Assembly (NCBI RefSeq): GCF_009914755.1
Contig: NC_060929.1
Source: the human T2T-CHM13v2.0 reference genome, Homo sapiens
Length of the DNA stretch: 64,000 nt
Reading direction: 5' to 3' (one strand)
The notes beneath the pieces were generated by a model that worked only from the letters and a program-made list of their open reading frames with translations, was not told where the DNA came from and searched no databases. Every line of letters begins with the position of its first letter. The first letter of the stretch is position 1. The position numbers were made by a program, and so were the translations under genes. Below are positions 3,568-55,830 of the stretch, piece by piece.

Positions 3568-3705
3568 AGCCGGGTGCAGTGGCTCACCCCTGTAATCCCA
3601 GCACTTTGGGAGGCCAAGGCAGGCAGATCACCTGAGGCCAGGAGTTCGAGACCAGCCTGGCCAACATAGTGAAACCCCTATCTCTACTAAAAATACAAAA
3701 ATTAG
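3568..3705 (+). mobile_element. AluS left arm only, truncated at the linker and fused to satellite
   Basis: GCCGGGTGCAGTGGCTCA...CTACTAAAAATACAAAAATTAG followed directly by satellite GAGTAATATC. Confidence 0.92.
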
Positions 3706-5560
3706 GAGTAATATCTTTCTACAATATTACAAATAGTATCACAACGTGTCCACACATGGTGTACACCCACTGTGATATCTGGAGTAATATCTTCCCATGA
3801 TATTACAAGTAATATCACAGGGTGGTTTCCCACTGTTATATTAGGAGTAGTATCTTCCTACAGTATCACAAATAATATCACAAGGTATACACACATTTTG
3901 TACACACAGTGTGATATTAGGAGTAATATCTCTATGATATGAAAAATAACACAGGGTGTACACCCAAAGTGATTTCAGGAGTAATATCTCCCTATGATAT
4001 TAAGATTAATATCACAGTGATGTTAGGAGTCATATCTCTATGATATTATGAATAATGTCACTGGGTGTAAACACATGGTGTACACCCTCTGTGATATGAG
4101 TAATCTTCTATGATATGGATAATATTACATGGTCTACACCCTCTGTGATATTATGAGTAATCTTCTATGATATGGATAATATTACATGGTGTACACCCCC
4201 TGTGATATTAGGAGTAATTTCTCAAGGATATATTTTACATAATATCACAGGGGTTTACACACACATGGTGTACACACCCCTATGATATTACCAGTAATGT
4301 CTTGAGGATATATTATGCATAATATCACTGGGGGTGTACGTACATATGGTGTACACCTGCTATGATATTAGCAATAATTGCTCAAGGATATATTATGCAT
4401 AATATCACAGGGGGTGTACAGAAACAGGTATACTCCTTCTGTGATATTAGCAGTAATGTCTTGAGGATATTTTATGCATAATATGTGTACACCCACTGTG
4501 ATATTACCAGTAATGTCTTGAGGGTATATTATGCATAATATCACAGGGTGTACACCCACGGTGATTCTAACAGTAATATCTTGAGAAATTATGCATAATA
4601 ACAGAGAGTTACCCGCACTATGATAGTAGCAGTAATATCTCGAGGACGTTATGCTTAGTATCACGGGCTGTACACACAGAGCGCAAACCCATGGTGTTAT
4701 TAGTGGTAATATCTCAAGGAAATTATTCCTAATATCATGGGGTATACACACAGGTTGCACACTTAGGGTGATATTAGCAGTAACATCTAGAGGACATTAA
4801 GCCTAATATCGTGGGGTGTACTGACAAGGTGTGCACCTTTGGTGACATGAACAGTAATATCTCAAGAATATTATGCCTGATATAACAGGGTGTACACACA
4901 GGGTGCACACCCACAGTGATATTCGCAGTCATATCTCGAGGATATTATGCCTAATATTACAGGGTGTACACACAGGATGTACATCCACTATGATATTAGC
5001 AGTGAGAATATTATGCACAATATCACAGTGGTTGTACACCCTGTGTGTACACCCTGTAATATTAGCAGTGTGATACCGCACTGTGATATTAGCAGTCATA
5101 TCTCGAGGACATTATTATGCATGACATCACGTGTACACCCACTGTGATATTAGCAGTCTTATGTCAGTGATATTCTTATGCATGATATCTCAGGGTGTAC
5201 ATGCCAGTTGTATACCCAATGTGACTTTAGCAGTCATATTTTGAGGATATTTTTATGCATGATATCACAGGGTGTACGCACAGGCTGTACACCCACTGTT
5301 ACACCAGCAGCCATATTTTGAGGATATTATTAATCGGGATATCACAGGGTGTACACCCACTGTGACAGTGGCAGTCATGTCTCAAGGATATTATGCAGGA
5401 CAGCACAGGGTGTACGCACAGGGTGTACCCTTACTGTGACAGTAGCAGTCATATCTCGATTATATTATGCAGGATATCACAGGGTGTACACTGTGTGTAC
5501 AGTGTGTACGGTGATAGCAGCAGTCATTTCTCAAGGGTATTATTATGCAGGATATCATAG
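3706..5560 (-). repeat. SATR1/SATR2-type satellite, opposite orientation to the main array
   Basis: Tandem TGTGATATTAG(G/C)AGTAATATCTC...AATATCACAGGGTGTACAC units; reverse complement of the units at 48525-52790. Confidence 0.85.
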
Positions 5561-5639
5561 TGTGTTGACACTACATATGATAAATGCCATTTGCCTGTCT
5601 ACACACAGGGTTATTATTGTGATATTACTGTGTGAAATT

Positions 5640-6580
5640 ACTGTGATATTACTGAAATATCCCTCTGATATTTATCATATTACAGTGTTGACATGGAGTG
5701 TTTACGCTGTGATATTAATGAAATATCACTCTGATGTTTATTATATCACAGTGCTTACACACTGTGATATTAATAAAATATCACTCTGATATTAATAAAG
5801 TATCATTCTGATATAATATCCAATGATTACACACTATGATATGAATGAAATATCACTATGATGTTAATATCACAGTGTGTACACACTGTGATTTCAATGA
5901 AATATCACTCTGATATTTATAATATCCAGTGTTTATACACCATGATATTAATGAAACATTGCTCTGATATTTATAATATTCATTGTTTACACACTGTGAT
6001 ATTAATGAAATATCGCTCTGGCATTTATAATATCGAGTGTTTATACACTGTGATATTAGTGAAATATCACTCTGGCATTTATAAGATCCAGTGTTTACAC
6101 ACTGTGATATTAATAAAATATTGCTCTGACATTTATAGTGTCCAGTGTTTATACACTGTGATAATATTGAAATATTGGTCTGACATTTATAATATCCAGT
6201 GCTTACACACCAAGATATTAATGAAATATCCCTCTTCTATTTATAATATCCAGTGTTTACACACTGTGATATTAATGAAATATTGCTCTGATATTGATAA
6301 TATCCAGTGTTTACACACTGTGATATTAAGGAAATATTGCAGTGATATTTATAATATCCAGTGTTTATACACAGTGCTTACACACTGTGATATTAATGAA
6401 ATATTGCAGCGTTATTTATGATACCCAGTGTTTACACACTGTGATATTAATGAAATATCGCTCTGATATTGATAATATCCAGTTACACACTGTGATATTA
6501 ATGAAATATCACTCTGATACTTATAATAGCCAGTGTTCACACACAGTGTTTACACCTTGTGATATTAATGAAATATCGCT
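5640..6580 (-). repeat. 54-bp SATR-related minisatellite (GTTTAC-centred)
   Basis: Unit CAGTGTTTACACACTGTGATATTAATGAAATATTGCTCTGATATTTATAATATC. Confidence 0.85.
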
Positions 6581-7420
6581 GTAATAGTTATCATATTTAG
6601 TGTCAATGCACTATGGTATTAATGAAATATCACTGTGGTATTCATCATATCTAATGTCAAAACAGTATGGTATTAATGAAATATCACTGTGATATTTATC
6701 ATATCTAGTGTCAATGCACTGTGGTATTAAGTAAATATTGCTGTGATACTTATCATATCATATCTAGTGTTGATGCGCTATGGTATTAATGAAATATCAC
6801 TGTGGTATTTATCATATCTAATGTCAACACACTATGGTGTTAATGAAATATCGCTGTGATATTTACCATATGTAGCGTCAACGCACTATGGTATTAATGA
6901 AATATCGCTGTGATATTTATCATATCTAATGACAACGAACTATAGTATTAATTAAATATTGCTGTGGTATTTCTTATATCTAGTGTCAACGCACTATCTT
7001 ATTAAGGAAATATTGCTGTGATATATATATATGGTCATACGTAGTGTCAATGCACTATGGTATGAATGAAATATCGCTGCGACATTTATCTCATATCTAA
7101 TGTCAATGCAGTGTAGTATTAATGAAATATCGCTGTGATATTTATCATATCATATTTAGTGTCAACGCACTATGATAGTAATAAAATATCTCTGTGGCAC
7201 TTATCATATGTAGTGTCAACGCACTATACTAATGAAATATCACTGTGCTATATATCATATCTATTGTCAACGGACATGAAATTTCACTATGATATTTATC
7301 ATATAATATCTAGTGTCAATACATTATGGTATTAATGAAATGTCGCTGTGATATTTGTCATATCTAATGTCAACACACTATGGTAGTAATGAAATATTGC
7401 TGTGATATTTATCGTATCTA
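6581..7420 (-). repeat. ~54-bp SATR-related minisatellite (GTCAAC-centred)
   Basis: Unit TAGTGTCAACGCACTATGGTATTAATGAAATATCGCTGTGATATTTATCATATC. Confidence 0.8.
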
Positions 7421-10488
<3,068 letters not shown>

Positions 10489-10494
10489 TGTGTG

Positions 10495-10728
10495 TGTATA
10501 TATATATGAAATAAATCATTAATACCATACAAAGCATTTTCCACATAACAAATGCTCTTGGAGACCATACCACTTCGAGTTATAAACATCTCTTCCTTTT
10601 TGGTAGCTGTGTAGTACTCCATGGTACGGATGTACCATTATTTATTTGACCATTCTCTATGGCTGAGCATTTGAGTTGTTCCCTGACTTCTGCTACTACA
10701 AGCACTGGTGCAATAAATATCTTTTCTC
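10495..10728 (-). mobile_element. L1ME-type LINE 3' UTR, upstream half
   Basis: Reverse complement reads ...GAATGGTCAAATAAATAATGGTACATCC...GGTCTCCAAGAGCATTTGTT...TATATATATACACACAC; probably continues at ~11000-11085. Confidence 0.75.
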
Positions 10729-10737
10729 GTGCAATTT

Positions 10738-10997
10738 CTTTAAGTCAAGTTTATTGAGGTACAATGTTCACGCAGTGAAATTCTCCTTCTTCAGCACATA
10801 GTTACTGAGTCCTGAATAAGTCATACAGGGATGCCCCTACTCACAGCCAAGATTAGAGCATTTCCATCACCACAGGGAGTCTTCTTGTCCCTTCCCCCTG
10901 CCACCAATAGGGCCCTTGGTCCTCACAAATGCCACATAAAAGGAATCAAGTAAGATGCAGTCCTTTGAATCTAGTACTCTCACTTAGCATAATGCTA
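10738..10997 (-). mobile_element. L1MB/ME-type LINE 3' end nested in the L1ME
   Basis: TTTATTGAGGTACAA...CATTTCCATCACCACAG...TCACTTAGCATAATG. Confidence 0.7.
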
Positions 10998-11100
10998 AAA
11001 GCAAATATCCTTCCATATACGCATCTGGGCATGTGTGAGAACTTCAGAAGAAGCTGCGGGATTGAAGAGCGTGTGTATTTTTTACTTGTTATATATCATC

Positions 11101-11478
<378 letters not shown>

Positions 11479-12286
11479 TAGTGCATATATTCCTGTTATA
11501 GTTACATAGTGCATATACGTGCATATATTCCTGTTCTAAGGGTCTCTATGGGGAGCACACAGGGTTTTCCTTGAGCCCTGGCTCAGATGCCAACAGATCC
11601 CACTCAGGTGTGGCGGCTTCTGCCTGTTTGACTTGGTTGGGATCCCAGTGGTCTGGGTGTTGGGGAGCTCAGGCATGAACACCAAGGCCAGAAAGTGGCT
11701 CCCCAAGATTCCCCCAAACTGATGCCAGTTACAGGGCTGCTGTGGAGGGGAAGGCAGAGCCTTAGAAAAACACAGCAAGAGGCCAAAAAATGCCCGTTGG
11801 TGATTTTCAGAGTGGACTGCTCTCTGCAGGCTGGAAGTGTCTGGGACCTTGCTCAGCTGGGCTCCAGGTCAGCTGCTGGAGTGATTTGGGGAGTTGAGTG
11901 AGGATAGATGCCATGAAAGTCTGCCATCCACAGAGTGAAACTAAGTCACCCGGGAAATTGAGCCGATTGTCGGCCACTTGGGGCTTTTGCCTGATTTTCC
12001 TAAGCAAGGTGGGGCTTCTTGAAGGAAAGAATTAATCTCAAATTTCTGATATTCGACTTTGGATATTTAACATATGTAGATAAAATATGATCTCTACTTC
12101 CATGTGTGTACATGTGTATAACCAGTGTGCATTTTTCCCTGGTGTAAAGAAAAATAAGAACCTATGTCAAGAGTATAACAGTAAAGCAGAGTGCAGTCTG
12201 CAAGGTGTAGTATTTTTGTTTGGAAAGTGACATTTTTAGTTCCTCCATGAAATCTTTTACTGATTCCAAATAATGTATTTAACATT

Positions 12287-12578
12287 GACCAGGCATGGTG
12301 GCTCATTCCTGTAATTCCAACACTTTGGGAGACCAAGGAGTGGAGGATAGCTTGAGCCCAGGAGTTCCAGACCAGCCTGAGCAACATGGTGAGACCCCCC
12401 AATCTCTAAAAATAAAAATAAAAATAAAAATTAATTAGCCGGGCATGGTGGCGCACCTGTAGTCCCAGATATTCAGGAGGCTGAGGTGAGAGGATCACTT
12501 GAGCCCAGGAGGTTGAGGCTGCAATGAGCCATTATCTCACCACTGAACTCCAGCCTGGATGACAGACCAAGACCCAAC
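12287..12578 (+). mobile_element. AluJ SINE lacking its own tail
   Basis: GGAGGATAGCTTGAGCCCAGGAG diagnostics; ends at AAGACCC where an L1PA begins. Confidence 0.92.
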
Positions 12579-12581
12579 CGC

Positions 12582-12758
12582 ATGGGGGAGGGATAGCATT
12601 AGGAGATATACCTCATGTAAAGGACGAGTTAATGGGTGCAGCACACCAACATGGCACATGTATACATATGTAACAAACCTGCATGTTGTGCACATGTACC
12701 CTAGAACTTAAAGTATAATTAAAATATATATATAAAAAAAGAAGAAAGAAAAAGAAAA
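12582..12758 (+). mobile_element. 5'-truncated young primate L1PA 3' end with poly-A
   Basis: GGGGGAGGGATAGCATTAGGAGATATACC...GTACCCTAGAACTTAAAGTATAAT plus A-rich tail. Confidence 0.93.
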
Positions 12759-13321
12759 CTGAACTATATTCTCCTTTTATTTGTTAATTGTTACAAAACC
12801 ATAAAACTAACCAAAAATGTAACCATTACTGAAAATGTTGTACAGTAGAGGAAAGTGTTTAAAAAAATGATCTACTCCAATGCAAATACCCTAGCTCCAC
12901 CACACCACTGCTTAGAGGCCTCTCGTCCATCACCAGAAGATTGTTTTCAATCTCTCTTAAACCGTATTCATGGGAAACACATTCTCTTTCTGAAATGCCA
13001 GATGGCTGGCAGAATCCTACCCTGTGTGGGCAGTGGAGGAGGAGGGTCGGTGAGATGGAAGAGGTGAGACCTCACTGTCCCCAGGAGCAGGATTCCAGAT
13101 CCTGCGCCCCCCACTTGGCCTCCCACACTTTGGATGCTCCAGGCCAAGGTTGATGGGCCATTTTCCTGCCATCGCTGCCTGGAACCTGCCCAGATTGTTT
13201 TAAGACAGCTGCTTGAGCTCCATGGGCTGGAAAGGGACTGTGCTGCATCTGTGAACCTGATATGAAACCCATCTGTCTGCCGAAGGAATGCATTGGAGAC
13301 TGTCTTAGGTGACAGCTGGCA

Positions 13322-13487
13322 CAGCACTGTCCGACAGAAGTTTCTGTAGAAATGTGCTGTTCTGTAGAAATGTACTGTTCTGTGCAGCCACATGTGGCTA
13401 CTGAGCACTTGAAATGTGGTTAGCCAACTTTTAATTGAAATTTAAATGGCCGCACGTGGCCAGTGGCTATCATGTTGAACAGCACGG
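13322..13487. mobile_element. MER3 DNA transposon
   Basis: CAGCACTGTCC...GCCACATGTGGCTACTGAGCACTTGAAATGTGG...TTGAACAGCAC. Confidence 0.8.
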
Positions 13488-13499
13488 GGCTAGGAAATC

Positions 13500-13745
13500 T
13501 ATGTGTGCTAATGTGGAATAACCATGCAGATGGATGCATGAGGTGCAGGGAGAGGCAAGGGCCCAATCTGCTGTTATTTGCTGAAAATGGGGGTGAAGGG
13601 TGGTGTTTGCAGAGGCACACATCGTGCTGGAAGGACTGAGGACAGGAGAGGAGCTGGCAGAGGGCAAGAGGGAGATTTTCCAGGTGTGCTCTTGTGTACA
13701 TTTTGTATTTTGAACCACGCTAATGTATTACTAATTCCAAATATT
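13500..13745 (+). mobile_element. L1ME-type 3' terminal fragment
   Basis: TGTACATTTTGTATTTTGAACCACGCTAATGTATTAC resembles the L1ME3/4 terminus. Confidence 0.5.
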
Positions 13746-13799
13746 GATCTATTGAAAGATATTGCTAAATGGCTGCAGGGGAGGAGCAGAACATTGCTG

Positions 13800-14360
13800 G
13801 GTATTATTATAGCATATGGGTATATTATATGCTATATGGGTATATTATAGTATATAATATGTGTCTTGGGTCAGGGGATGTGTCCACAGTGAGTGTGCGG
13901 GTAACTATGAAAGAATGGGAGTGTGAATGTGAGTGCAGGAGTGTTGAGTATATAAGAACGGGAGTGAGAATGAGTGTGTGCGTGTGTAAGTTGAATATGA
14001 GTGTGTGCATATGCAAATACAAATTGAGCATGTGTGTAGGTTAGAGGATGGGTGTGTGAGAGCATAGTGTGAATGTGTATAAATGTGAGTGTGGATGTGT
14101 GAGTTTGTAAAAGAATCAGTGGGAGAACTGCAGTGTGTGAGTGTGAGAAACAGCAAATGTGAGTGTGTGAATGTGTGTTTGTGTGGCTGAGTATGGGTGT
14201 GAGTAGGGGTAAGTGTGTGTGACAGTGTAAGAGTATGTGTGTGCATGTGTATATGTGAACGTGAGAGAGTTTGAGTTCTGTGTGTGAGAGAGTGAACCTG
14301 GAGGGGCGTGAGGCTGTGTGTCAGTGTGGGTGAATATGTGTGTGCATTGTGTGTGAGATC
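13800..14360. repeat. Degenerate (TG)n/(TGAG)n low-complexity tract
   Basis: About 550 bp of interrupted GTGT/GAGT dinucleotide runs. Confidence 0.85.
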
Positions 14361-15005
14361 AGGCATGGGAGTCATCCAGGAAGAAAAAGACAGTTGAAAC
14401 ACAAACCCTGACCGTGGAGAGCTCACAGCCTGGCATGGGAGGAGGACGGGAAATCCCTCAGTGAGAACCACACAATAAGATGGTGGAAATTTAATTTGCT
14501 GGCATTTGACTCACGGGGCTAGCTGTGCTTGGAGAAATGCTTCCTAAGGGCCTGGCATACAAGGTGGTAGCAGCAGCAATGGCATCTGTTAGGTTTTGAG
14601 CCCCTGCCATGGCAGAGCCTCCTGAGTTGAGAACTTCATGGTGTCATCCCCCTGCCATGTCTACCCACAGCCCCAGCTCAGGACCTGCCCGTAGTGGGCA
14701 CCCAGCACCCTCCAGCCAGCCCAGGAGCAGCTACACAGCCTCACTTGTCCCTGTTTACCCAGCCCCAGATCCCACAAGCGCTGGAGGCAACGTGATATTC
14801 TATGGAGGAGGAGGAGGGGAAGAAAGAGGGAATCCCTCGAGGAGGGGAAGAAAGAGGGAATCCTTCAGATCAAATGAGCCCTCAGCACCACTCAAGCCAA
14901 CAGGTGTTCCACTGGCCCACCTTATGGCAGGCAGGAAACTTGTCTAAACTTTGTCTTTCTCGAAGCCAAAATTTGTGACTGGAGGTGGCTCCAAGCAGTG
15001 CTTAG

Positions 15006-31560
<16,555 letters not shown>

Positions 31561-31574
31561 ACACTGTGTGTTCA

Positions 31575-36150: not shown

Positions 36151-36164
36151 ATATTACTTCTCGA

Positions 36165-39100: not shown

Positions 39101-40345
39101 TGGAATACTATTTGTAATATCCTTGCGAGATATTACCTCCTAATATCACAGTGGGTTTACACCATGTGTGTACACTCTGGGATATTATTCCTAATATACT
39201 GAGAAGATATTATTCCTAATATTACAGTCAGTGTACACCCAAATATATTATTCATAATATCCAGGGGAGATATTACTTCTAATATCACAGTGGGTGTACA
39301 CCCTGGGATATGGTTCGTAATATCCTGGAAAGATATTATTCATTATGTCACAGTGGATATACACCATGTATGTACACCCTGAGATATTATGCATAATATC
39401 CTGGGGAGATATTATTCCTAATATCACAGTGGGTGTACACCAGGTGGGTACACCCTGGGATATTATTCGTATTATCCAGGGAAGATATTAGTCTCCTAAT
39501 ATCACAGTAAGTGTACACCATGTGCATACACTCTGGGATATCGCTCGTAATATCTGGGGGAGATATTATTCTCCTAATATTACACTGGGTGTACACCATG
39601 TGTGTACACCCTGGATGTTATTTATAATATCCTTGGGAGTTATTACTTTCCTAATACCACAGTGGGTATACAATATTTGTGTACCACCTGGAACATTATT
39701 CTTAATATCCTTGAGAGATGATACCCTCCTGATGTCACAGAGGGTGTACATCATGTGTGTACACCCTGGGATATTATTCGTAGTATTTTGGGGAGATATT
39801 ACTCTCTTAATGTTACAGTTTGTTTACACCATATTTGTACATTCTGGGATATTATCCATAACATCCTGAGAGATATTACTGTCCTAATATCGCAGTAGGT
39901 GTTCACCATGTTTGTATACCCTGGAATATTATTCGTAATATCCTTGGGAGATATTTCTCTCCTAAAGTCACATTGGGTTTACACCATGTGTGTATACTTT
40001 TGGATATTATTCATAACATTTTGGGGAGATATTACTCTCCTAATGTCACAGTGCATTTCCATCTTGTTTGTACATCCTGGGTTTATTATTTGTAATATCC
40101 TGGGGAGATATTACTCTCCTAATATCACAATAGGTGTTCACCATTTTTGTACACCCTGGAATATTATTTGTAATATCCTTGGGAGATATTACTCTCCTAA
40201 TATCACAGTAGGTTTACGCCATGTGTGTGCACTCTGGGATATTATGTGTAATATCATGTGGAGATATTACTCTCCTAATATCACAGTGAGTGTACACCAT
40301 GTGTGTACAACCTGGGATATTATTCGTAATATTCTGGAGAGGTAA
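36165..40345 (+). repeat. SATR variant A/A2 block, first ~360 bp inverted
   Basis: 36165-36525 are reverse-complement units; 36566-38220 is paralogous to 32622-34420. Confidence 0.85.
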
Positions 40346-40349
40346 CACA

Positions 40350-43300: not shown

Positions 43301-46300
43301 ACACCCCTCCTGCGATATTGCTTTTAATATCCAGGGGAGGAAAAGAATGATATTTCTCCCAATATCAAGGGTGGTTTTCACCCCCCCATGATATTGTTTC
43401 TAATATCCAGGGGAGAAAAGGACAAATATTACTCCCAATATCGAGAGGGGTCTACATCCCTTCTGTGATATTGTTCCTAATATGCGAAGGGGAAGGATAT
43501 TACTTCCAAAATCACAGGGGTATGCACCATTTCTGTGATATTCTTCCTAATATCCAGGGGTGAAGAAGATGATAATACTCCCAATATCGCAGTGGGTGTA
43601 CACCCCCATGTGACATTGTTTCTAATATCCAGAAGTGGAGAGCATGATATTACTCCCAATATCACAGGGGCTGTGACATTGTTATATTGTTTCTGTTATA
43701 TTGTTTCTAATATCCACAGAAGGATATTGCAGGGGGTTTACACACCCACTGTGATATTATTTCTAATATCGTGAGGGAGAGAGGATGATAGTAATTCCAG
43801 TATTTCAGGGGGTGTACACCCTTGCTGTGAAATTGCTTTTATATCCAAAGGGCTAGAGGCTGATATTATTTCAGTATCACAGGAAGTGTACACTCACCCT
43901 TTGATATACTTCCTAAAGTTTAGAAAAGAATAATATTACTTTCAATATTGCAGATGGTATACACAGTTTCTGTGATATTGCTGTCAGTATCCAGGGGGAG
44001 AGAGGGTGATATGACTTCCAGTATCACAGGGAGTGTACACCTCCCTTGTGATATTGTTCCTAATATCCAGGGCAGGCAGAAGATGATATTATTACAAATA
44101 TTGCAGAAAGTGTAAACCCCCCCCGTGATATTGTTCATAATTTCCAGGGGAAGAGAGGATGATATAACTCTCAATATCTCAGGGGATGTACACCAGCCCT
44201 GTGATATTGTTTCTAAAATCAAGCAGGGGGGAGGATGACATTACTTCCAATATCGCAAAAGGTGTACACCCCTTCTGTGATATGGTTCCTAATATCCATG
44301 AGAAAGAGGATGATATTACTCCCAATACCGCATGGGGTGTACACCCCCTCTATGGTATTGTTTTTAATATCCAGAGGAAGAAAGGATGATATTACACCCA
44401 ATATTACAGAGGGTGTACACCCTCCCGTGATATTCTTTTTAATATCAAGGGAAAAGAGAATGATATTACTCCCAATATCAAAGGGTGTGTGCACCACCCC
44501 TGTGATATTGTTCCTAATATCCAGGGAGGAGATAATAAAATTATTCCAAATATCACAGGGGCTGTACACCTCTCCTGTCATATTGTTCCTAATATCTAGG
44601 GTGGGGAGAAGATAACATTATTCCTAATTACTCAGATGGTTACACCATCCCTGTGATATTGTTTCTAATATCCAGGGGGAAAGAGGATGATATTACTCCC
44701 AATATCGCAGGTGGTGTACAGCACCCCTGATATTGTTCCTAATATCCAGAGAGGGAGAGAATGTTCTTACTCCCAATATCACAGAGATTGTACAACCCTC
44801 TTGTGATATTGTTTGTAATATCCAGAAGGGGAGAAAATGATATTACTCCCAATATCGCAGGTTGTGTACATTCCCCCCTGTGATATATTTACTAATAACC
44901 GGGGGGGAGAGGATGCTATTACTCTCAATATCGTGGAGGTTGTACACCCCCCTTGTGATATTGTTCCTATTATCCAGGTGGACAGACGAAGGTATTATGA
45001 TTAATATCCCCAAAATTTTGCACCCCCTGCTGTGATAGATTTCCTAATATCAGAAGGTGAGAGGATAATATTACTCCCTAAATCGCAGGGGGTGTACACT
45101 CTCCCTGTGATACGGTCCCTAATATCTATGGGGAAAGAGGATGTTATTACTCCCAATATCGCAGAAGGTGTACATCCCTCACACATGATATTGCTTCTAA
45201 TTCCCGTGGGAGAGAGGATGATACTACTCCCGATATTGTAGGAGTTGTACACTTTGCTTGTGATATTGTTTCTAATATCCATGGGGATGACGATGATATT
45301 GCTGTCAATATCCTAAAGAGTGTACACCTGCAATAAGATATTGTTTCTAATATCCGGGGGGGAGAGGAAGATACAACTTCCAATATCGCAGAGGGTGTAC
45401 ACTTCGCCTGTGATATTGTTTTTAATATCCAAGGGAAGAGAGGATGATATTACTCCCAATATCGCAAAGAATGTACACCACTTTGGTGATATTTTTCCTA
45501 ATGTACAGGGCGGGAGAGGATGATTTTACTCCCAATATCGCAGGGGATGTACAGCACCCTGTGATATTCTTCCTAATATCCAGAAGGAAAGAGAATGCCA
45601 TTACTCCCAATATTGCAGGGTGTATAAACCCCTTCTGTGATATTGTTTCCAGTATCCAGGGAGGGAGAGGATAATATTACTACCAATATTGAAGGGCAGA
45701 TGTACTCCCTCCCTGTGATATTGTTCTCTATATCCAGGGAAAAGAAGATGATATTACTCCCAATATTGCAGAAAGTGTACACAGTGCCCCCCCGCCCCGT
45801 GATATTGTTTCTAATGCCCGGTGGGGGGAGAAGATAATGTGACTCCCAATATTGCAGGAAGTGTACACGTTCTCGGTGATATTGTTCCCAATATCCAGGG
45901 GAAAGAGAATCATATTATTCCCATTATCGAAGGATGTGTACACCCCCCTGTTGTATTATTCCTAATATCCAGGTGGGGATATGTTAATATTACTCCAAAT
46001 ATTGCAGGGGCTGGTCACCCACCATGTAATATTGTTCCTAATACCTAAGGGGAAAATAATATTACTCCCAATATCGCAAAGGGTGGACATCTTTCCTGTA
46101 AATTTGTTCCTAATATCCGCTGCAGAGAGAGGATGATATACTCTCAATGTCGCAGGGAGTGTTCATCCCCACTTTAATATTGTTCCTAATATTCAGTAGT
46201 GGAGAGGATGGCATTACTTACAATATCGCAAAGAGTGTACAACCCTCTTGTGACATTGTTCCTAATATCCAGGGGAAAATAGGATGATATTACTCCCAAT

Positions 46301-48520
46301 ATCTCAGGGAGTTTACACTGCCTCTGCGATATTGTTCCTAACATCTAGATAAGAAGAGAATATCACTCCCAAAATCGCAGAAGGTGTGCACCCCAAGTGT
46401 AATATAGTTCCTGATATCCAGGGGGGACAGGATGATATTACTCCCAATATTGCAGGAACTGTACACCCCCCTGGTGATATTGTTTCTAATACCCAGGTGG
46501 AAAGACGATTATATTACTCCCAATATCCCAGGGGCTGTACAACCCGCCTGTGATATTGCTTTTAATGTCCAGTGGGGGATAGAACTCTATTACTATCAAT
46601 ATCACTGGGAGAGTACACCCCGCCCAGTGATATTCTTCCTAATATCCAGAAAAGGAGAGTTTGATGTTAGTCCAAATATAGCAAAGGGTGTACAGCCCGC
46701 TTGTGGTATTGTTCTTAATATTTAGGGAGCAGAAGATAATATTATTCCCAATATCGAAGGGGGTGTTCACCATTTCTGTAATATTGTTCCTAATATCCAG
46801 AAGCTAAGCAGATGATATTACTTTCAATATCACAGAAAATGTCCACACCCCCTTGTGATATTGTTCCTAATATGCAGGGGAAGAGAGGATGACATGAGTT
46901 TCAACATCGCAGGGGGTGTACACCCCGCCTGTAGTAGAATTCCTATATCCAGAGGAAGAGGGAGGATGAAGTTATGCCCAATATCGCAGTGGCTGTACAC
47001 CCACCCTCCCGGGTGATGTTGTTTCTAATATCCAGAGGGGAGAATATATTACTTCCAATATCGTAAACACCTTGAGTGTACACCCCCCTGGGATAGGGTT
47101 TGTAATATTTAGGAGGGGAGAGGGTGATACTACTCCTGATATCACGGGGTGTGTACACTCTGCTGTGAAATGGTTTGTAAGATCCGGTGGGGAGTGGATG
47201 ATAATACACCCCATATCGCTGGGGAGTGTACACTCGCCTGTGATATGGTTCGTAACATCCAGAGGGGGAGAGGATGATATCACTCCCCATATCGCAGGGG
47301 CGTGTACACCCCCCTGTGATATGGTTCATAACACTCAGGGGAGGAGAGGGTTATAACACTCCCCATATCTTTGGGGTTGTACAACTCCCAATATCGCAGG
47401 GTGTGTACACCCTTCTGTGATATTTTTCATAATATCTAGGCGGGAAGAGGACGATATTACTCCCAATATCTCAGGGGTTGTAAACCCCCCTGTGATGTTG
47501 TTTGTAATATCCAGGGAAGGAAGACAATGATATTACTCCCAATATCACAGAAGGTGTATACCCTCTGTGATATTGTTTGTAATATCCAGGGTGGTAGGGG
47601 ATGATATTACTCCCAATATCACAAGGGGTGTACACCCCCTGTGATATTGTTTGTAATATCCGGAAGGGTAGGGAATGATATTACTTCCAATATCGCAGGG
47701 GGTGTATACTCCCCTGTGATATTCTTCAAAATATCTAGAAAAAAAAGGGGATAATATCACTCTCAATATCGTAGGGGGTGTACTCCTTCCTGTGATATTG
47801 TTCATAGGAGGTGTACGTCTGCTTGTGATATTGTTGGTAATATCTAGGGGGCGAGAGGATGATATTACTCCCAATATCACAGGGTGTGTAAACCCCCTGT
47901 GATGTTGTTAATAATATTCAGTGGGAGAAGAAGATGATATTACTTCTTCTTATTAGACAAAGGGATGATATTACCTCCAATATCGCAGAAGGTGTACACC
48001 CTCTGTTACATTTTTCATAATATCCAGGAGGGGAGGAGATGATATTACCCTCAATATCACAGTGGGAATACACTCCCTATAATATGGTTTGTAATATTAG
48101 AAGGAGAGGGGATGATATTACATCCAATATCACAGGGTGTGTGCACCCCGCAGTGATATTGTACGTAATATGCAGGGAGAAAGGGAATAATATTAGTCCC
48201 AATACTGCAGAGGGTGTACATTCCTCTATCATATTGTTCGTATTATCCGGGGGGCGGGGATGATATTACTCGCAATATTGCAAGAAGTGTACACCCTCTC
48301 TGATACTTTTCATAATATTTAGGGAAAGAGGGGATGATATTACTCCCAATATTGCAGTGGGTGTACACCCCAATGTTATATTGTTCATAATATCCAGAAG
48401 GAGATAAGATGCTATTACACCCAGTATTGCAGGGAATGTACAAACCCCTGTTACATTGCAAGGGTTGTACACTCCCCTGTTCATAATATCCAGGGGAAGA
48501 GAAGATATTACTCCCAATAC
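40350..48520 (+). repeat. SATR ~75-bp G-rich monomers (B2 with B1 islands)
   Basis: Same consensus as 15275-31560; B1 islands at ~42040-43140 and ~47070-47380. Confidence 0.9.
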
Positions 48521-48524
48521 CCTC

Positions 48525-51500
48525 ATATCCTACGGAGATATTACTCCTAATATCACAGTGGGTTTACATCATATGACTACACCCTGTTATACTATTCATT
48601 ATATCATAGGGAGATATTTCTCCTAGTATCACAATGGGTGTACACCATGCATGTATACCCTGTGATATTATCTGTAATATCCTAGGAAGATATTACTCCT
48701 ACTATCACAGTGGGTATACACCATGTGTGTAGACCCTATGATATTATTTGTAATATCCTGGAAAAATATTACTCCTATTAACACTGTGAATGTACACCAT
48801 GTGCATATACCTTGTGATATTATTTATAATATCCTAGGGAGGTATTACTCCTACTATCACAGTGGGTGTACACCATATATGTACACTTTTTGACATTATT
48901 TCTAGTATCCTTGGAAGATATCACTCTTAGTATGACAGTGGGGGGTACACCATGTGTGTACACCCTGTGATATTATTCACAATATCCTAGGGAGATATTG
49001 TGAATATCACAGTAGGGGTACACCATGTGTGTTCACCCTGTGATATTATTCATAATATCCTAGAGAGATACTACTCCTAGTATCACAGTGAGAATACAGA
49101 ATCTGTGTACATTCAGTGAAATTATTTATAATATCCCAGGGAGATATTAATCCTAGTATCACAGGGAAGGTACACAATGTAAGTACACCCTGTGATATTA
49201 TTTGTAATATCCTAGGGAAATATTACTCCTAGTATCACAGTAGGGGTACACCATGTTTGTACACCCTGTGATATTATTTGTAATATTCTAGGGAGATATT
49301 ACTCCTAATATCACAGTGAGTGTGCACCTTGTGATATTCATAATATCCTAGAAAGATATTACTTCTAATATCACAGTAGGGTACAACATTGTGTACACCT
49401 ACTGTGATATTATTCATAATAACCTAGAGAGCTATTACTCTTAATATCACAGTGGGTATATACAATGTTATATAATTAGTAATATCCTACGGAGGTATTA
49501 CTCTTAATATCACAGTGGGTGTACACCTTGTGTGTACATCCATTGATGTTATTCATAATATTCTAGGGAGATATTACGTGTAATATCACAGTGGGTGCAC
49601 TCTGTATGATGTTATTTATAATATACTTGGCAGATGTTATTTATAATATTCTTGGCAGATATTATTCCTAATATCACAGTGGGTGTACACCTTGTGAGTA
49701 CAATCTGTGATATTATTCATAATATTCCAGGGATATATTAATCCTAATATCACAGTAGGTGTACACTCTGTGATACTATTCATAATATTCTAGGGATATA
49801 TTACTCCTAATATCACTGTGGGTGTACACCCTGTGATATTATTTTTAATATTCTAAGGAGATATTACTCCTAATATCACAGTTGGTGTGCACCCTGTGAT
49901 AATATTCATAATATTTTAGTGATAATATTTTTTAATATCACAGTCAGTGTACACCCTGTGATATTATTTTTAATATTCTAAGGAGATATTACTCCTAATA
50001 TCACAGTTGGTGTGCACCCTGTGATAATATTCATAATATTTTAGTGATGATATTTTTTAATATCACAGTCAGTGTACACCCTGTGATATTATTTGTAATA
50101 TTCTAGGGAGATATTACTCCTAATATTACAGTGGGTGTACACCCTGTGATATTATTTGTAATATCCTAGGGAGATATTACACCTAATATCAAAGTGTTGT
50201 GATATTAAGTGTAATATCTCCCTAGGATATTATGAATCATATCAAAGGGTGTACAGGCACTGTAATAGGATATCGCCCTGTGTGTATACCCACTCCGATA
50301 TTATATGTAATATTCTAAGGAGATATTACTCCTCATATAACAGTGAGTGCACATCTTGTGTATACCTTGTACACTCACTGTCTACACCCTCTGTGATATT
50401 AGGAGTATTATCTTCATAGGATATTATGAATAACCTCACAGTGAGTGCACACGCTGTGTGTACACCCACTGTGTTCTTAATATTCTAGGAAGATACTACT
50501 CTTAGGAAGATGTCACAGGATGTCTACACATGCTGTACATTTTCTGTGATATTAGGAATCATATCTCCCTAAAATATTATAAATAATGTCACATGATCTC
50601 CACACATGATGTACACCCCCTTTGACATTAAGAGTACTATCTCCCTATGGTATTATGAATGATGTCACAGAAGGTGTCCACAGACAGGGTACACCTTCTG
50701 TGACATAGAAGTAATATCTCCCTAGGATATTATGAATAATGTCACGAGGTGTCCACAAACGTTGATCACCCCCGTGACATTAAGTGTAATATCTCCCTAA
50801 GATATTACAAATAATGTCACAGGGTTTCCACACATGGTGTATACCCCCGGCGACATTAAGAGTAATATCTTCCTAGAATATTATGAATAATGTCACAGGG
50901 TTTCCACGCATAATGTACACCCCCTGTGACATTAGGAGTAAGATCTCGCTGTGTGTTTGTGTACACCCACTGTGATATTATTCATAATATGCTATGGATG
51001 TAATACATCTAATATCATAGAGGGTGTACACCCTGTGTGTGCACCAACTGTGATATTATTTGTTATATCCTAGAGAGATATTACTCCTAATATCACAGTG
51101 GGTGTAGAGATATTACCCTTAATATCACAGTGGGTTTACATCATGTGTTTACACCCTGTGATATTATTCTTAATATCATAGGGAGATATTCCTTCTAATA
51201 TCACAGTGTGTGTACAGTCTGTGATATTATTCATATCATAGAAATATATTACTCAATATCACAGTGAGTGTACATCATAAGTGTACACCCTGTGAAAATA
51301 TTCATAATATTTTAGAGATATATTACTTTTAATGTCACAGTGGGTGTACACCCTGACATATTATTTGTAATATCCTAGTGAGATATTGCTTTTAATGTTA
51401 ATGTGACTGTACACCCTGGGATATTATCTGTAATGTCCCAGGGAGATTTTTCTCTTAGTTTCACAGTAAGTGTACACCCTGGGATAGTATTTGTAATATC

Positions 51501-52790
51501 CTAGGTAGATATTACTCCTAATATCACAGTTAGTGTGCACCCTGAAATATTATTCATAGTATCCTAGGAAGATATTACTCCTAATATCACAGTTGGTGTA
51601 CAGCCTGTGAAATAATTCATAATATTATAGGGAGATATTACTCCTAATATAATATCACAGTGGGTGTACACCTGTGTGTGCACCCTGGGATATTCTTTGT
51701 AATCTCCTAGGGAGATATTAATCCTAACATCACAGTCAGTGTACACCCTGTGTGTACACCGGGGATATTATTTGTAATGTCCTAGGCAGATATTATTTTT
51801 AATATCAGTGTATGTACACATTGTGTGTACACCCTGAGATATTATTTGTAATGTCATAGGAAGACATAATTCCTAATATCAACATGGGCATACACCCTTT
51901 GTGTACACCCTGAAATATTATTTATAATGTAATATGAAGATATTACTCCTAACATCACAGTGGGTATACACGCTGTGCATACACCCTGGAAAATTATTCG
52001 TAACAACCCAAGGAGATATTACTCCTAATATCACAGTGGGTGTACACCACATGCGTTCACCCTGTGATATTAGTTATAACATCATAGGGAGATATTACTT
52101 TTAATATCGCAGTATGTGTACACACTGTGATAATATTTCTAATATGTTAAACAGATATTGCTCCTAATATCACAGTGGAGGTACACCCTGTGATATTATT
52201 CATAATATCTTAAGGGGATATTACTTCTAATATCCCAGTGGGTGTACACCCTGTGATATCTGTAATATTTTAGGCAGATATTACTTTTAATATCCCAGTG
52301 GGTGTATACCCTGTGTGTACATGCTGTGTTATTATTTGTAATATTTTAGGGAGATATTACTCCTAATATCCCTGTGGGTGTATACCCTGTGTGTATACCC
52401 TGTGATATTATTTGTAATATCTTAGGGAGATATTACTCATAATATTCCAGTGGGTGCACACCCTGTGTGTACATCCTGTGATATTATTTGTAATATCTTA
52501 GGGAGATATTACTCCTAATATCCCAGTGAGTGTTCACCCTGTGTGTACACTCTGTCATGTCATTTGTAATAGCTTAGGGAGATATTATCCCTAATATCTC
52601 AGTTATTGTACACCCTTTGCATTCAGCCTTTGTTGTCGTTTTTATCATCTTAAATAGATATCACTCCTAGTATTTCAGTGGGTGTACACACTGGATGTAC
52701 ACCCCGTGATATGATTCATAATATCTAGAAAGATATTATTCCTAATATTCCAGTGGATGTACACCCTGTGGGTATGTACTCTGATGTGGC
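48525..52790 (+). repeat. SATR variant A (63/76-bp monomers) with internal inversions at ~50200-50945
   Basis: GGGAGATATTACTCCTAATATCACAGTGGGTGTACACCCTGTGATATTATTTGTAATATCCTA. Confidence 0.9.
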
Positions 52791-52799
52791 TATAACGGA

Positions 52800-54830
52800 T
52801 ATCATGGATATCATGCAAAATATCATCAATATTTTATTAATATCATAGTATGTTAAAACTAGGTATTATAAATATCATGGATATTTCATTAATATCTTAG
52901 TGTGTTAATACTGAGTATTAACATTTGTTATTATAAATATCATGTATATTTTATTAATACCATAATGTGTTCACACTGTGTTAACACTACATATTATAAA
53001 TATCAAAGATATTTTATTAATATCATAGTGTTTTAACACTGGATATCATAAATATCAAGATATTTTATTAATATCGTGTGTTAACACTAGATGTTATAAA
53101 TATCATTGATTTTTTAATATCATAGTGTTTTCACTAGATATTATAAATATTGTAGATATTTTATAAATAACTTAGCACTGTGTGTTAATACTAGATATTA
53201 TAAATATCATGGATATTTCATTAATATACTGTGTTAACACTGTGTGTTAATACTAGATATAATTATCACAGATATTTTCTTAATATCATAGTGTGTTAAA
53301 ACTAGACATTATAAATATCATTATATTTTATTATTATTAGTAATATCTCAGTGTGTTAACATTAGGTATTATAAAATCATGGATATTTCAATAATATCAC
53401 AGTGTGTTAACACTAGATATTATGAATGTCATTGATATTTTATTAATATCGTAGTGTGTTAACACTAGATATTTTGAATATCATAATAACTGTGTTAAAA
53501 CACAGGATTAACACTAGATATTATAAATATCAGAGATATTTTGTTAGTATCATAATGTGTTAACACTAGATATTATAAATATCAAATATTTTATTAATAT
53601 CATAGTGGGTTTAACACTGTGTTTTAACTCTAGATATTACAAATATCAAAGATATCTTATGAATATCATAGTGTGTTTACATCAGATATTTTAAATATCA
53701 TGGATATTTTATTCATATCATAGTGTGTCACCACTAGATATTATAAATATCATGGCTATTTCATGAATGTCATAGTATGTTAACACTCTGTGTTAACTCT
53801 GGATATAGTAATTATCATGTATATTTTCTTAATATCATAGCATGTTATCACTAGATATAAATATCATCATATCTTGTTAATATCTTAGTGTGTTAACACT
53901 AGATATTTAAAATATTATGGATATTTCATTAATATCCTAGTATGTTAACACTTGATATTATAAATATCATGGATACTTTATTAATGTCATATTGTGTTAA
54001 CACTATGTGATACATTACATATGATTATTATGGATTTATTATTAGTATCACAGGTGTTAACACAAGATATTATAAATATAATGGATATTTTATTAATAGT
54101 ATAGTGTTAAAACTGAATATTTTATTAGTATCATAGTGTGTTAACCCTAGATATTATAAATATGGAAATTTTATTAATATCATAGTTTGTTAACACTAGA
54201 TATTATAAATATGGAAATTTTATTAATATCATTGTGTGTTAACACTGTGTGTAAACACTAGAGATTATAAATATCATATTTTATTAATATCATTGTGTGT
54301 TTACATTAATAAATATCATAGGTATTTTATGGATATCATAGTGTGTAAACACTGTGTGTTAACTTCAGATATTATAAATATCATAGATATTTTCTTAGTA
54401 TCATAATGTGTTAACCCTGTGTGTTAACACTGTATATTATAAATATCTTAGTTTTTTTTTAATATCATAGTGTGTTTACACTGTATGTTAACACAAGGTC
54501 ATGTAAATATCATACATATTTTCTTAATATCATAGTATGTTATCACTACCTAAGACAAATATAAAGATATTTTCTCAATATCATAGTGTGTTAACACTAG
54601 ATATTATAAATATCATAGATATTTTATTAATATCACAGTGTGTTAAAACTAGATATTTTAAATGTCTTAGATATTTTATTAATATCATATTGTGTTAACA
54701 CTAGATATTATAAATATTATAGATATTTTATTAACATAGTGTGGTAACACTGTATTAACACTTGATATTATTATAAATATTTTAGATATTTTATTAACAT
54801 AGTGTATTATATATGATATTATCTATATAT
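52800..54830 (+). repeat. AT-rich GTTAAC-centred minisatellite, outer layer of the array
   Basis: ATATCATAGTGTGTTAACACTAGATATTATAAATATCATAGATATTTTATTA; reverse complement of the 7421-10488 unit. Confidence 0.88.
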
Positions 54831-54834
54831 ATGC

Positions 54835-54965
54835 TATATATCTATGAATTATCTCTGGAAAGGATATCTGATAATATTAATTATATCTGGGGAGGCTACA
54901 AGAAGCCAAGGATGATAAGAAACCCTAAATTTCACTTTATACTTGTTGATGTTACACAAAAAAAC
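54835..54965 (+). mobile_element. L1ME-type LINE 3' UTR, terminal half
   Basis: TATATATGC...TCTGGAAAGGATA...TATCTGGGGAGG...TTTCACTTTATACTT resembles the L1ME terminus downstream of its TA-rich tract. Confidence 0.55.
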
Positions 54966-55290: not shown

Positions 55291-55404
55291 CTTTACTTTC
55301 TCTGCCTTGGTCCTCTCATACCCACTCCTGATTTTAGGTGATTGGGTGGAAATGGCCATTGAACATCATACTCTACTAACAAAGACCATTTGAGAGTTAG
55401 ATTA

Positions 55405-55830
<426 letters not shown>

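What the first reader, a model, noticed from the sequence alone, without database searches (positions are those of the whole stretch)
3706..54965. Array appears to have grown inside the (TA)n tract of an L1ME 3' UTR, with layered structure
Seen: both outer edges fade into TATATA/TGTGTG simple sequence (10480-10510 and 54805-54850) next to L1ME-like sequence. From the edge inward the unit changes stepwise: short AT-rich GTTAAC units, GTCAAC units, 54-bp GTTTAC units, then 63/76-bp TGTACA units and ~75-bp G-rich units. The right side shows GTTAAC, then type A, then type B. From my recollection of the consensus, L1ME 3' UTRs have a TA/TG-rich tract at this point. Inference: the satellite arose in situ from a self-complementary microsatellite and expanded from the middle, leaving older layers outside as described for alpha satellite. 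This could be a founder-like SATR locus.
Basis: partly seen in the sequence, partly recalled or inferred. Interest (0 to 1): 0.8.

Follow-up and report, generated by a model that had tools for sequence, protein, structure and literature searches.

The report
Layered SATR satellite array, partly inverted
A 46-kb block of a known primate satellite family in an intron of SLC25A48 really is built of ordered layers of different repeat units, but the same layers occur at other chromosomal sites, so it is more likely one copy of an old composite array than the family's birthplace.

Summary
The layered satellite is real. It has two blocks, 3706-10510 and 15279-54850 (46.4 kb), separated by 4.8 kb of ordinary DNA. 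Unit types change stepwise from AT-rich GTTAAC units through GTCAAC, GTTTAC and TGTACA units to G-rich units.

An old paralogue at chr16:10.72-10.78 Mb has about 9% substitutions in its flanks. It keeps one array in one orientation between the same two flanks.

With the inversion undone, the array begins where an old L1 ORF2 should end (about 10480). It ends 115 bp before an A-run (54957-54965). The L1 setting is therefore supported on one side only.

The founder, in-situ and older-outside readings are not supported:
- Seven other loci carry the same outer unit types. Four of them show the same inner-to-outer order. None of the 13 stretches fetched shares chr5's flanks.
- The GTTTAC unit consensus is identical at 53 of 54 positions on chr5 and chr8.
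- Outer layers are less diverged from their consensus (9-11%) than the G-rich core (14-19%).
- No part of the array is young and homogeneous.

Most likely this is one descendant of an old composite SATR array, later duplicated, inverted and enlarged by block duplications.

The parts
3564..3705 (+). Left part of an Alu, cut off and joined directly to satellite. This is one junction of the chr5 rearrangement.
   Evidence: Sequence and Alu hit 3705-3569. The chr16 copy of this Alu is full length, with an A-tail and a short direct repeat on both sides.
3706..5565 (-). TGTACA-core units of 57-80 bp (type A/B) in reversed orientation. This is the inner end of the inverted block.
   Evidence: TRF rows. 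The motif AGTAATATC is present and GATATTACT absent.
5812..6548 (-). Layer of 54-bp units with a GTTTAC core.
   Evidence: TRF gives 13.5 copies at 80% matches. Divergence from consensus is 0.091 for 10 units. The consensus matches the chr8:29.6 Mb layer at 53 of 54 positions.
6563..7674 (-). Layer of 54-bp units with a GTCAAC core.
   Evidence: TRF and motif counts.
7706..7953 (-). The only Alu insertion inside the array.
   Evidence: Of 11 Alu hits in the window, 1 lies inside the array.
8051..10446 (-). AT-rich layer of 55-57-bp units with a GTTAAC core, GC about 0.21.
10480..10510 (.). TG run then TA run at the array edge. It lies where the L1 ORF2 stop is expected.
   Evidence: The same tract is in the chr16 copy. 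The ORF2 position is extrapolated.
10511..10724 (-). C-terminal part of an old L1 ORF2, pointing into the array.
   Evidence: 38 genome copies at 71-78% cover 10585-10720. phmmer hits L1 ORF2p residues 1218-1242 of 1275, E 0.045.
10725..15138 (.). Non-satellite DNA carried along by the inversion.
   Evidence: There are no satellite rows here. It is collinear with chr16:10761433-10766060 at about 9% substitutions.
15139..15278 (-). Right part of a second Alu (A-tail inward), cut off and joined to satellite. This is the second junction.
   Evidence: The chr16 copy of this Alu runs about 27 bp further.
15279..31522 (+). G-rich units of 75-76 bp with a TGTACA core.
   Evidence: TRF gives 124.9 copies at 67% matches for 15315-24537. 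Divergence from consensus is 0.16-0.18.
31573..32621 (+). G-rich 76-bp variant that lacks the TGTACA core.
   Evidence: TRF. No TGTACA occurs in bins 31501-32500.
32930..34421 (+). Type A/B units of 63/76 bp. This block is duplicated at 36566-38229.
   Evidence: The off-diagonal matches are 82.6-83.3% identical.
34418..36132 (+). G-rich units of 75-76 bp, GC 0.53.
36248..40341 (+). Type A/B units of 63/76/78 bp. By my reading, the TRF consensus of 36248-36497 is in reverse orientation.
40355..48458 (+). G-rich 76-bp units. They are partly a block duplicate of 24.9-29.1 kb.
   Evidence: 24893-29059 matches 44007-46880 at 74.5-80%.
48525..52774 (+). Type A/B units of 63/76 bp. 50510-50947 is reversed.
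49382..49472 (-). Annotated MIR5692C1. It lies inside the A/B satellite block and folds as a near-perfect hairpin.
   Evidence: RNA fold -42.9 kcal/mol, z -9.2. The annotation comes with the task.
52818..54751 (+). AT-rich layer of 48-52-bp units with a GTTAAC core.
   Evidence: The outer part is collinear with chr16.
54805..54850 (.). TA-rich, decayed last unit(s) of the array.
54851..54965 (+). Short flank ending in an A-run. It may be the 3' end of the same L1, but this is not shown.
   Evidence: Sequence. It matches only its chr16 paralogue. No significant match to L1 3' ends was found.

Best explanation
This is a 46.4-kb composite array of the dispersed primate SATR satellite family.

All unit types share one plan: a palindromic core plus two GATATT...AATATC hairpins. 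As a result every unit can fold back on itself.

The array was built by successive amplification of unit variants and by multi-kb block duplications inside it. The AT-rich 52-57-bp and 54-bp variants sit at the ends. They look like the latest amplifications, not the oldest.

This layered series already existed when the family spread, because other loci carry it next to unrelated DNA. I infer that the chr5 locus is one descendant copy, lying at the end of a 5'-truncated old L1.

The whole locus, flanks included, was duplicated between 5q31 and 16p13.13 tens of millions of years ago. Afterwards the chr5 copy broke at three points: in one Alu, in a second Alu and inside the array. The array's L1-side 6.8 kb plus 4.8 kb of flank was inverted. 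The DNA between the two Alus, 8.6 kb in the chr16 copy, was lost.

Shown: the layers, the unit orientations, the paralogue, the derived chr5 junctions, and the presence of the layers elsewhere.

Inferred: the order of amplification, the dates, and that this locus is not where the family was born.
For: - Layers and orientation.
- Similarity falls with distance between layers: AT to GTTGAC 0.75, GTTGAC to GTAAAC 0.72, GTAAAC to A/B 0.57-0.60, A/B to G-rich 0.56-0.62, AT to G-rich 0.50-0.53. The two AT ends are as alike (0.73) as units within one end (0.74-0.78) (380 units).
- Units of all 12 layer groups fold better than shuffles as single-stranded DNA (z -1.9 to -3.7).
- Paralogue: both immediate flanks match only chr16. 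The chr16 layout is right flank reversed, then 21 kb of array in one orientation, a 6.9-kb insert, 175 bp of GTTAAC units, and the left flank.
- The chr5 junctions are derived. The first Alu is full length with an A-tail and a flanking direct repeat on chr16, and the second runs further there.
- Substitution divergence between chr5 and chr16 is 0.085-0.094 in flanks and 0.091-0.111 in the outermost AT-rich satellite.
- Divergence from layer consensus is 0.097-0.108 for AT layers, 0.091 for GTAAAC, 0.125-0.174 for A/B and 0.138-0.186 for G-rich.
- Internal block duplicates exist at 83% and at 75-80%. The nearest relatives of inner units lie 3.4-5 kb or about 19 kb away, against 0.2-1 kb for outer units.
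- The same layers occur elsewhere, with no homology to chr5's flanks.
- Literature, passages read: SATR1/SATR2 are dispersed and form mixed arrays with inverted parts and an uncharacterised AT-rich repeat in macaque (10.1101/2025.08.04.668424). They also mark duplicon and inversion breakpoints (PMC5088589).
Against: - Divergence from consensus is a weak clock here. Sample sizes differ (7-69 units), G-rich layers may mix subfamilies, and GC-rich hairpin DNA may mutate faster.
- The chr5/chr16 ancestor is the only locus examined with long AT-rich layers at both ends in one orientation. That is what a birthplace might look like.
- Satellite identity between other loci (73-80%) equals identity within arrays, so no direction of copying can be read from it.
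- Only 7 of the roughly 9 loci with AT-rich or 54-bp layers were inspected, and none of the hundreds of first-look candidate places with inner unit types.
- No outgroup genome was available.
- The right flank could not be shown to be L1.
Confidence: 0.6

Rival explanations
1. The satellite was born here from a self-complementary TA/TG tract at the start of an L1 3' UTR. It grew from the middle and left the oldest layers outside, and this locus (or its chr5/chr16 ancestor) seeded all other SATR loci.
For: - The array starts where the ORF2 stop is expected and next to a TG/TA tract.
- An A-run follows 115 bp after the other end.
- The ends are symmetric and of one unit type.
- The outer 0.75-1.45 kb is collinear between chr5 and chr16 while the interior is not.
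- Inner parts grew by block duplication.
Against: - The same outer unit types lie at seven other loci, in the same order at four, with no match to chr5's flanks.
- chr7 has a further outer layer of 26-37-bp units that chr5 lacks.
- Outer layers are less diverged than the core.
- There is no homogeneous core.
- The flanks do not resemble the units.
- The right-edge TA tract reads as a decayed unit.
Confidence: 0.15
2. Cassette insertion. A ready-made layered array was copied from elsewhere into a fragile TA-rich spot at the end of this L1. The TA/TG tracts at both edges are remnants of the target, not of the satellite.
For: - TA-rich tracts lie at both edges on chr5 and chr16. The edges examined at chr7, chr8 and chr10 show none.
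- The layers exist at other loci.
- The small chr10 array lies between two near-identical 11-12-bp direct repeats.
- SATR marks integration points of duplications (PMC5088589, passages).
Against: - No clear target-site duplication was found at the chr5 edges.
- No donor was identified.
- Much of the L1 3' UTR would have to be missing.
- This overlaps with the best explanation, which leaves the mode of arrival open.
Confidence: 0.2
3. The layers are a decay gradient, not separate amplifications. The edge units simply mutated towards AT.
For: GC falls towards the edges. A mammalian mutation bias towards AT is recalled general knowledge.
Against: - Each layer has its own coherent consensus, core and length.
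- The GTTTAC consensus matches at 53 of 54 positions on two chromosomes.
- Outer layers are the least diverged from their consensus.
Confidence: 0.03
4. The inverted left block is an assembly error.
For: Satellite DNA is hard to assemble.
Against: - Both junctions join satellite to unique, truncated Alus.
- The inverted piece includes 4.8 kb of unique DNA.
- Unit orientation switches exactly at the junctions.
- Reads could not be inspected here.
Confidence: 0.02

Closest known systems
SATR1/SATR1v/SATR2 mixed arrays, as described for the macaque T2T genome (10.1101/2025.08.04.668424, passages read)
   Same: Dispersed interstitial arrays mix GC-rich and other SATR types. They contain inverted SATR1 pieces next to an uncharacterised AT-rich repeat, and duplicated DNA lies at the array borders.
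   Different: On chr5 the AT-rich material proves to be diverged units of the same plan, ordered in steps from core to edge. The array lies inside an old L1 and has one old paralogue. Correspondence to the macaque 'rnd6' repeat was not tested.
Layered expansion of alpha satellite at centromeres (recalled)
   Same: Distinct unit families are arranged symmetrically around a centre, the edges keep their order, and the interior is reshaped.
   Different: There is no young homogeneous core and no increase of divergence outward; the trend is the reverse. The array is small, interstitial and intronic.
Xiao/DA core duplicons with SATR-HERVE-SATR borders (PMC2700803 and PMC5088589, passages read)
   Same: SATR satellite is tied to duplicative spread and to inversion breakpoints.
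   Different: No HERV-E or OR7E content was seen in the window. The chr5/chr16 pair is much older (about 9% substitutions) than those duplicons.
Edge effect in tandem arrays, where end repeats escape homogenisation (recalled population-genetic models)
   Same: The outermost 0.75-1.45 kb is still collinear between the chr5 and chr16 copies. The interior is not.
   Different: At chr8:29.6 Mb the outermost layer is the most homogeneous (90% matches). Edges in this family can therefore also be sites of fresh amplification.

Membership tests
SATR1/SATR2 satellite family (Repbase/Dfam) | Sequence match to the SATR1 or SATR2 consensus | not testable with these tools
No Dfam or Repbase library is available.
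SATR1/SATR2 satellite family (Repbase/Dfam) | Dispersed over many chromosomes as interstitial arrays of mixed unit types | tested here: met
   The A/B query gave 467 matches from 492 first-look candidates, 36 scored. The G-rich query gave 101 matches from 377 candidates, 7 scored. Both hit many chromosomes.
Layered satellite with age gradient (alpha-satellite type) | Distinct unit families placed symmetrically around a centre | tested here: met
   This holds with the inversion undone: AT-rich GTTAAC layers lie at both ends and A/B and G-rich units inside. The inner part alternates G-rich and A/B blocks and is not strictly concentric.
Layered satellite with age gradient (alpha-satellite type) | A young, highly homogeneous core | tested here: not met
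   Within-layer identity is 0.63-0.80. The best internal duplicate is about 83% identical.
Layered satellite with age gradient (alpha-satellite type) | Divergence rises from core to edge | tested here: not met
   Divergence from consensus is 0.09-0.11 in the outer AT and GTAAAC layers, 0.14 in the GTTGAC layer (7 units) and 0.14-0.19 in G-rich layers.
Layered satellite with age gradient (alpha-satellite type) | More transposon insertions in outer, older layers | tested here: inconclusive
   The one Alu in the chr5 array lies in the outer layers. The three Alus in the chr16 array lie in inner types. The numbers are too small to decide.
Tandem array inside an L1 3' UTR | L1 ORF2 end directly upstream, in the right orientation | tested here: met
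   On chr16 the orientation is consistent on both sides of one array.
Tandem array inside an L1 3' UTR | Downstream flank is the L1 3' end with a poly-A tail and target-site duplication | tested here: inconclusive
   An A-run lies at 54957-54965. No match to six L1 copies or to the neighbouring L1 3' end was found (72 of 500 shuffles scored as well). A genome search found only the chr16 copy. No convincing duplication was seen.
Founder locus of a satellite family | Outer layers and flanks are unique to this locus, or shared only together | tested here: not met
   The outer unit types are present at seven other loci, and no match to chr5's flanks was found in the 13 stretches fetched.

The most novel reading that the evidence does not exclude
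The common ancestor of the chr5q31 and chr16p13.13 loci is where the whole SATR family arose. A hairpin-forming AT-rich unit emerged at the ORF2/3' UTR boundary of one truncated L1. The nested layers record its stepwise change into the 63/76-bp and G-rich units that later spread through primate genomes and now mark duplication and inversion hot spots. The lower divergence of the outer layers would then reflect slower decay of AT-rich DNA and not younger age.
Probability: 0.15. Interest if true: 0.6.

Novelty: new member of a known kind. Interest (0 to 1): 0.3.

Why it matters
SATR satellites sit at breakpoints of primate duplications and inversions, yet their origin and internal build are hardly described.

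This locus shows three things:
- The AT-rich material beside SATR arrays consists of diverged units of the same hairpin plan.
- The unit types keep a fixed order at several loci.
- Such an array can itself be inverted, duplicated between chromosomes and hit by mitochondrial DNA.

This gives a concrete series of subfamilies and a dated paralogue pair for anyone tracing the family in complete primate genomes. It does not by itself answer where the family was born.

Tried and rejected
1. My first model was that one Alu had been split by a simple inversion. I dropped it because chr16 shows two separate Alus, one of them full length. Three breaks with loss of the DNA between the Alus fit better. 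An Alu-Alu deletion followed by an inversion remains possible.
2. I tested whether 54850-54965 is an L1 3' end. BLAST against six L1 copies gave nothing beyond TA-rich noise. A local alignment to the neighbouring L1 3' end scored 24, which 72 of 500 shuffles reached. A genome search found only chr16.
3. I tested whether L1 homology runs to the array edge by aligning 10470-10600 to the neighbouring L1. The alignment looks sensible by eye but 170 of 500 shuffles scored as well. The six L1 copies fetched are of a younger type and align only to about 10588.
4. I compared both flanks with the AT-rich units. Of 8 flank-by-strand-by-unit comparisons, the best was reached by 9 of 300 shuffles and the rest by 60-236 of 300.
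5. I tested whether 3455-3565 and the DNA after the chr16 Alu are one continuous L1 ORF2. PDB searches gave no L1 hit. That continuity rests on my reading of the translations only.
6. Rfam gave no family at gathering score in 3000-56000.
7. I looked at Alu scarcity as a dating tool. There are 10 Alu hits in 17.6 kb of flank, 1 in the 46.4-kb chr5 array and 3 in the 21-kb chr16 array. The contrast with the flanks is strong. The chr5/chr16 difference is not significant by my own arithmetic, and insertion bias cannot be excluded.
8. Paper searches for SLC25A48 with 'satellite' (6 papers, listing only, none relevant) and for miR-5692, 'satellite' and SATR (top 10 listed, none relevant) found no description of this locus.

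Full report
**What is there**

Tandem Repeats Finder lists arrays from 3766 to 10481 and from 15284 to 54751. Between them it lists only two short rows, 13798-13855 and (AC)20 at 15024-15063. GC is 0.20-0.24 at 8001-10000 and 53001-55000, and 0.39-0.53 in the interior.

Counting core motifs in 500-bp bins gives a clean series:
- TGTACA at 3501-5500
- GTTTAC at 5501-6500
- GTCAAC at 6501-7500
- GTTAAC at 7501-10500
- TGTACA from 15001 to 52500
- GTTAAC from 52501 to 54800

Unit lengths are 52-59 bp at the ends, 54 bp in the GTTTAC and GTCAAC layers, and 63 or 75-76 bp inside (570 cores found).

**The left block is inverted**

Strand-specific motifs show that 3706-10510 has the opposite orientation to 15279-54850. 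AGTAATATC and ATATTAATAA occur only on the left. GATATTACT and TTATTAATAT dominate the right, apart from a short reversed stretch at 50501-51000.

Satellite starts abruptly after a truncated Alu at 3705/3706. It starts again after a second truncated Alu, in the other orientation, at 15278/15279. The 4.8 kb between the blocks is ordinary DNA.

**A paralogue on chromosome 16 gives the older arrangement**

The 290 bp right of 10510 match the whole genome in full only at chr16:10761433-10761724 (91%). The other 38 of 40 matches are dispersed copies at 71-78% that cover only 10585-10720. The 400 bp right of 54840 match only chr16:10732677-10733073, on the other strand (88%; 2 matches including self). 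Shorter queries hugging each edge also find only chr16.

Mapping 90 kb of chr16 onto the window gives this order:
- the right flank, reversed
- 21 kb of array in one orientation (10733063-10754100)
- a 6.9-kb insert
- about 175 bp of GTTAAC units
- the window's 10511-15274, forward

On chr16 the first Alu is full length, with an A-tail and a short direct repeat on both sides. The second Alu runs about 27 bp further than on chr5. The chr5 junctions are therefore derived.

After the duplication, chr5 broke in both Alus and inside the array. The segment 3706-15278 was turned round. The DNA between the two Alus, 8.6 kb on chr16, was lost. That this DNA was lost on chr5, and not gained on chr16, rests only on my reading of translations. 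Two PDB searches did not confirm it.

chr16 has further rearrangements of its own. The homology spans window 886-59771.

Substitution divergence between the copies is 0.085-0.094 in the flanks. With recalled primate rates this means roughly 35-45 million years.

**The L1 setting**

10588-10720 belongs to an old L1. Read on the minus strand, it aligns to residues 1218-1242 of the 1275-residue human L1 ORF2 protein (E 0.045). Extrapolating 33 more codons puts the stop at about 10480, exactly at the TG/TA tract that ends the array.

With the inversion undone, as on chr16, the other end of the array is followed by 115 bp and an A-run at 54957-54965. That fits a truncated L1 whose 3' UTR holds the array.

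I could not show that those 115 bp are L1. The right-hand TA-rich edge reads, beside its chr16 counterpart, as a decayed last unit.

**Relations between layers**

I cut 380 units out of the restored array.

Mean identity within layers:
- AT-rich ends: 0.74-0.78
- GTAAAC: 0.80
- G-rich: 0.70-0.75
- A/B: 0.63-0.70

Mean identity between layers falls with distance in the array:
- AT to GTTGAC: 0.75
- GTTGAC to GTAAAC: 0.72
- GTAAAC to A/B: 0.57-0.60
- A/B to G-rich: 0.56-0.62
- AT to G-rich: 0.50-0.53

The two AT-rich ends are as alike as units within one end (0.73).

Units of every layer fold on themselves better than shuffles as single-stranded DNA. The annotated MIR5692C1 lies inside the A/B satellite block.

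The inner part is not strictly concentric. G-rich and A/B blocks alternate three times. Block duplicates explain part of this: 32622-34367 matches 36566-38229 at about 83%, and 24.9-29.1 kb matches 44.0-46.9 kb at 75-80%. Nearest relatives of inner units lie 3.4-5 kb or about 19 kb away. Those of outer units lie 0.2-1 kb away.

**Age of the layers**

Non-CpG divergence from each layer's own consensus:
- AT-rich ends: 0.097 and 0.108
- GTAAAC: 0.091
- GTTGAC: 0.139 (only 7 units)
- A/B: 0.125-0.174
- G-rich: 0.138-0.186

There is no young core and no older-outside trend. Taken at face value the trend is the reverse.

The outermost AT-rich satellite differs by 0.091-0.111 between chr5 and chr16. 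About half of its divergence from consensus therefore arose after the duplication.

Only the outer 0.75-1.45 kb is uniquely collinear between the two copies. The interior aligns in many registers at 77% or less.

Caveats: sample sizes are unequal, G-rich layers may contain hidden subfamilies, and GC-rich hairpin DNA may decay faster.

**Other loci**

A GTTAAC-layer query found 73 matches from 19 candidates. Besides chr5 and the chr16 paralogue, they lie at chr16:83.77, chr8:29.6, chr11:98.87, chr8:94.80, chr1:223.74, chr7:100.83 and chr10:17.32 Mb. Three more places gave weak single matches.

I fetched 13 stretches. Nine of them, covering seven loci, hold arrays. The three weak places do not.

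- chr7 runs from G-rich through A/B, GTAAAC and GTTAAC to a further layer of 26-37-bp AT units, and then unrelated DNA.
- chr8:29.6 Mb runs from A/B through GTTTAC to GTTAAC, and then unrelated DNA.
- chr1 and chr16:83.77 Mb show TGTACA units followed by GTAAAC units.
- chr11:98.87 and chr8:94.79 Mb hold GTAAAC units only.
- chr10 is a 2.6-kb array with GTTAAC units at both ends.

Three chr5 flank queries found nothing in any of the 13 stretches.

The 54-bp GTTTAC consensus on chr8 differs from the chr5 one at 1 of 54 positions. BLAST identity of these layers to chr5 (78-79%) equals the identity within the chr5 layer.

At chr8 the outermost layer is the most homogeneous, a 73-bp unit at 90% matches. 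Edges in this family can therefore be young.

**What is known**

All of the following comes from passages I read, not whole papers.
- SATR1, SATR1v and SATR2 are described as dispersed satellites. In macaque they form mixed arrays with inverted pieces, an uncharacterised AT-rich repeat and bordering duplications (10.1101/2025.08.04.668424).
- They form borders of the Xiao/DA duplicons and mark duplication and inversion breakpoints (PMC5088589 and PMC2700803).
- A SATR1 variant was added in the human T2T repeat annotation (10.1101/2021.07.12.451456).
- SATR1 is abundant in hoolock gibbon (PMC3606032).

The listings of three paper searches showed no account of this locus or of ordered AT-rich SATR layers. 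Supplements were not read.

**Verdict**

The L1 setting is half shown. The founder, in-situ and older-outside inferences are not supported.

The locus is best read as one descendant of an old composite SATR array, later duplicated, inverted and enlarged.

Noticed in passing
L009:9110-10000 and L010:1-6250 (chr16:10754110-10761250): The 6.9-kb insert in the chr16 paralogue array is mitochondrial DNA. Open frames on the minus strand hit COX3 (E 7e-35), ATP synthase A (5e-23), an NADH dehydrogenase subunit family (2.5e-13) and, weakly, cytochrome b. It lies where the chr5 copy has its 54-bp and most of its GTTAAC layers.
   Followed up: partly
window 49382-49472 (-): Annotated MIR5692C1 lies inside the A/B satellite block. 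It folds as a near-perfect hairpin (-42.9 kcal/mol, z -9.2). Units of all layers have similar fold-back potential, so the hairpin alone does not set this unit apart. Rfam gave no match.
   Followed up: partly
L020:4683-7345 (chr10:17321683-17324345): A 2.6-kb mini-array has GTTAAC units at both ends, A/B and G-rich units inside, and one Alu. It lies between two near-identical 11-12-bp AT-rich direct repeats, which may be a target-site duplication. Chance was not excluded.
   Followed up: no
L025:3497-4037 (chr8:29606497-29607037): The outermost layer of the chr8 array is a 73-bp compound GTTAAC unit with 7.6 copies at 90% matches. That is far more homogeneous than the inner layers (66-80%).
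   Followed up: partly
L024:200-1255 (chr7:100836200-100837255): Beyond the GTTAAC layer the chr7 array continues into short 26-37-bp AT units that keep the GTTAAC core. An Alu interrupts them, and then unrelated DNA follows. chr5 has no such layer.
   Followed up: partly
window 1-3705, 10511-15278, 54851-64000 against 3706-10510 and 15279-54850: Alu hits number 10 in 17.6 kb of non-satellite DNA and 1 in the 46.4-kb array. The 21-kb chr16 array has 3. Turnover, late growth or insertion bias could each explain this.
   Followed up: partly
window 54850-59771 against chr16:10722835-10733063: The chr16 copy of the right flank is cut into four pieces in alternating orientation. The piece 57768-59771, which holds the SLC25A48 alternative exon 59044-59447, has an 88% copy at chr16:10722835-10724841.
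   Followed up: no
window 10725-11030 (-): By my reading of the translation, a second old L1 3' end lies directly upstream of the L1 fragment that abuts the array, in the same orientation. This is not confirmed by any search.
   Followed up: no
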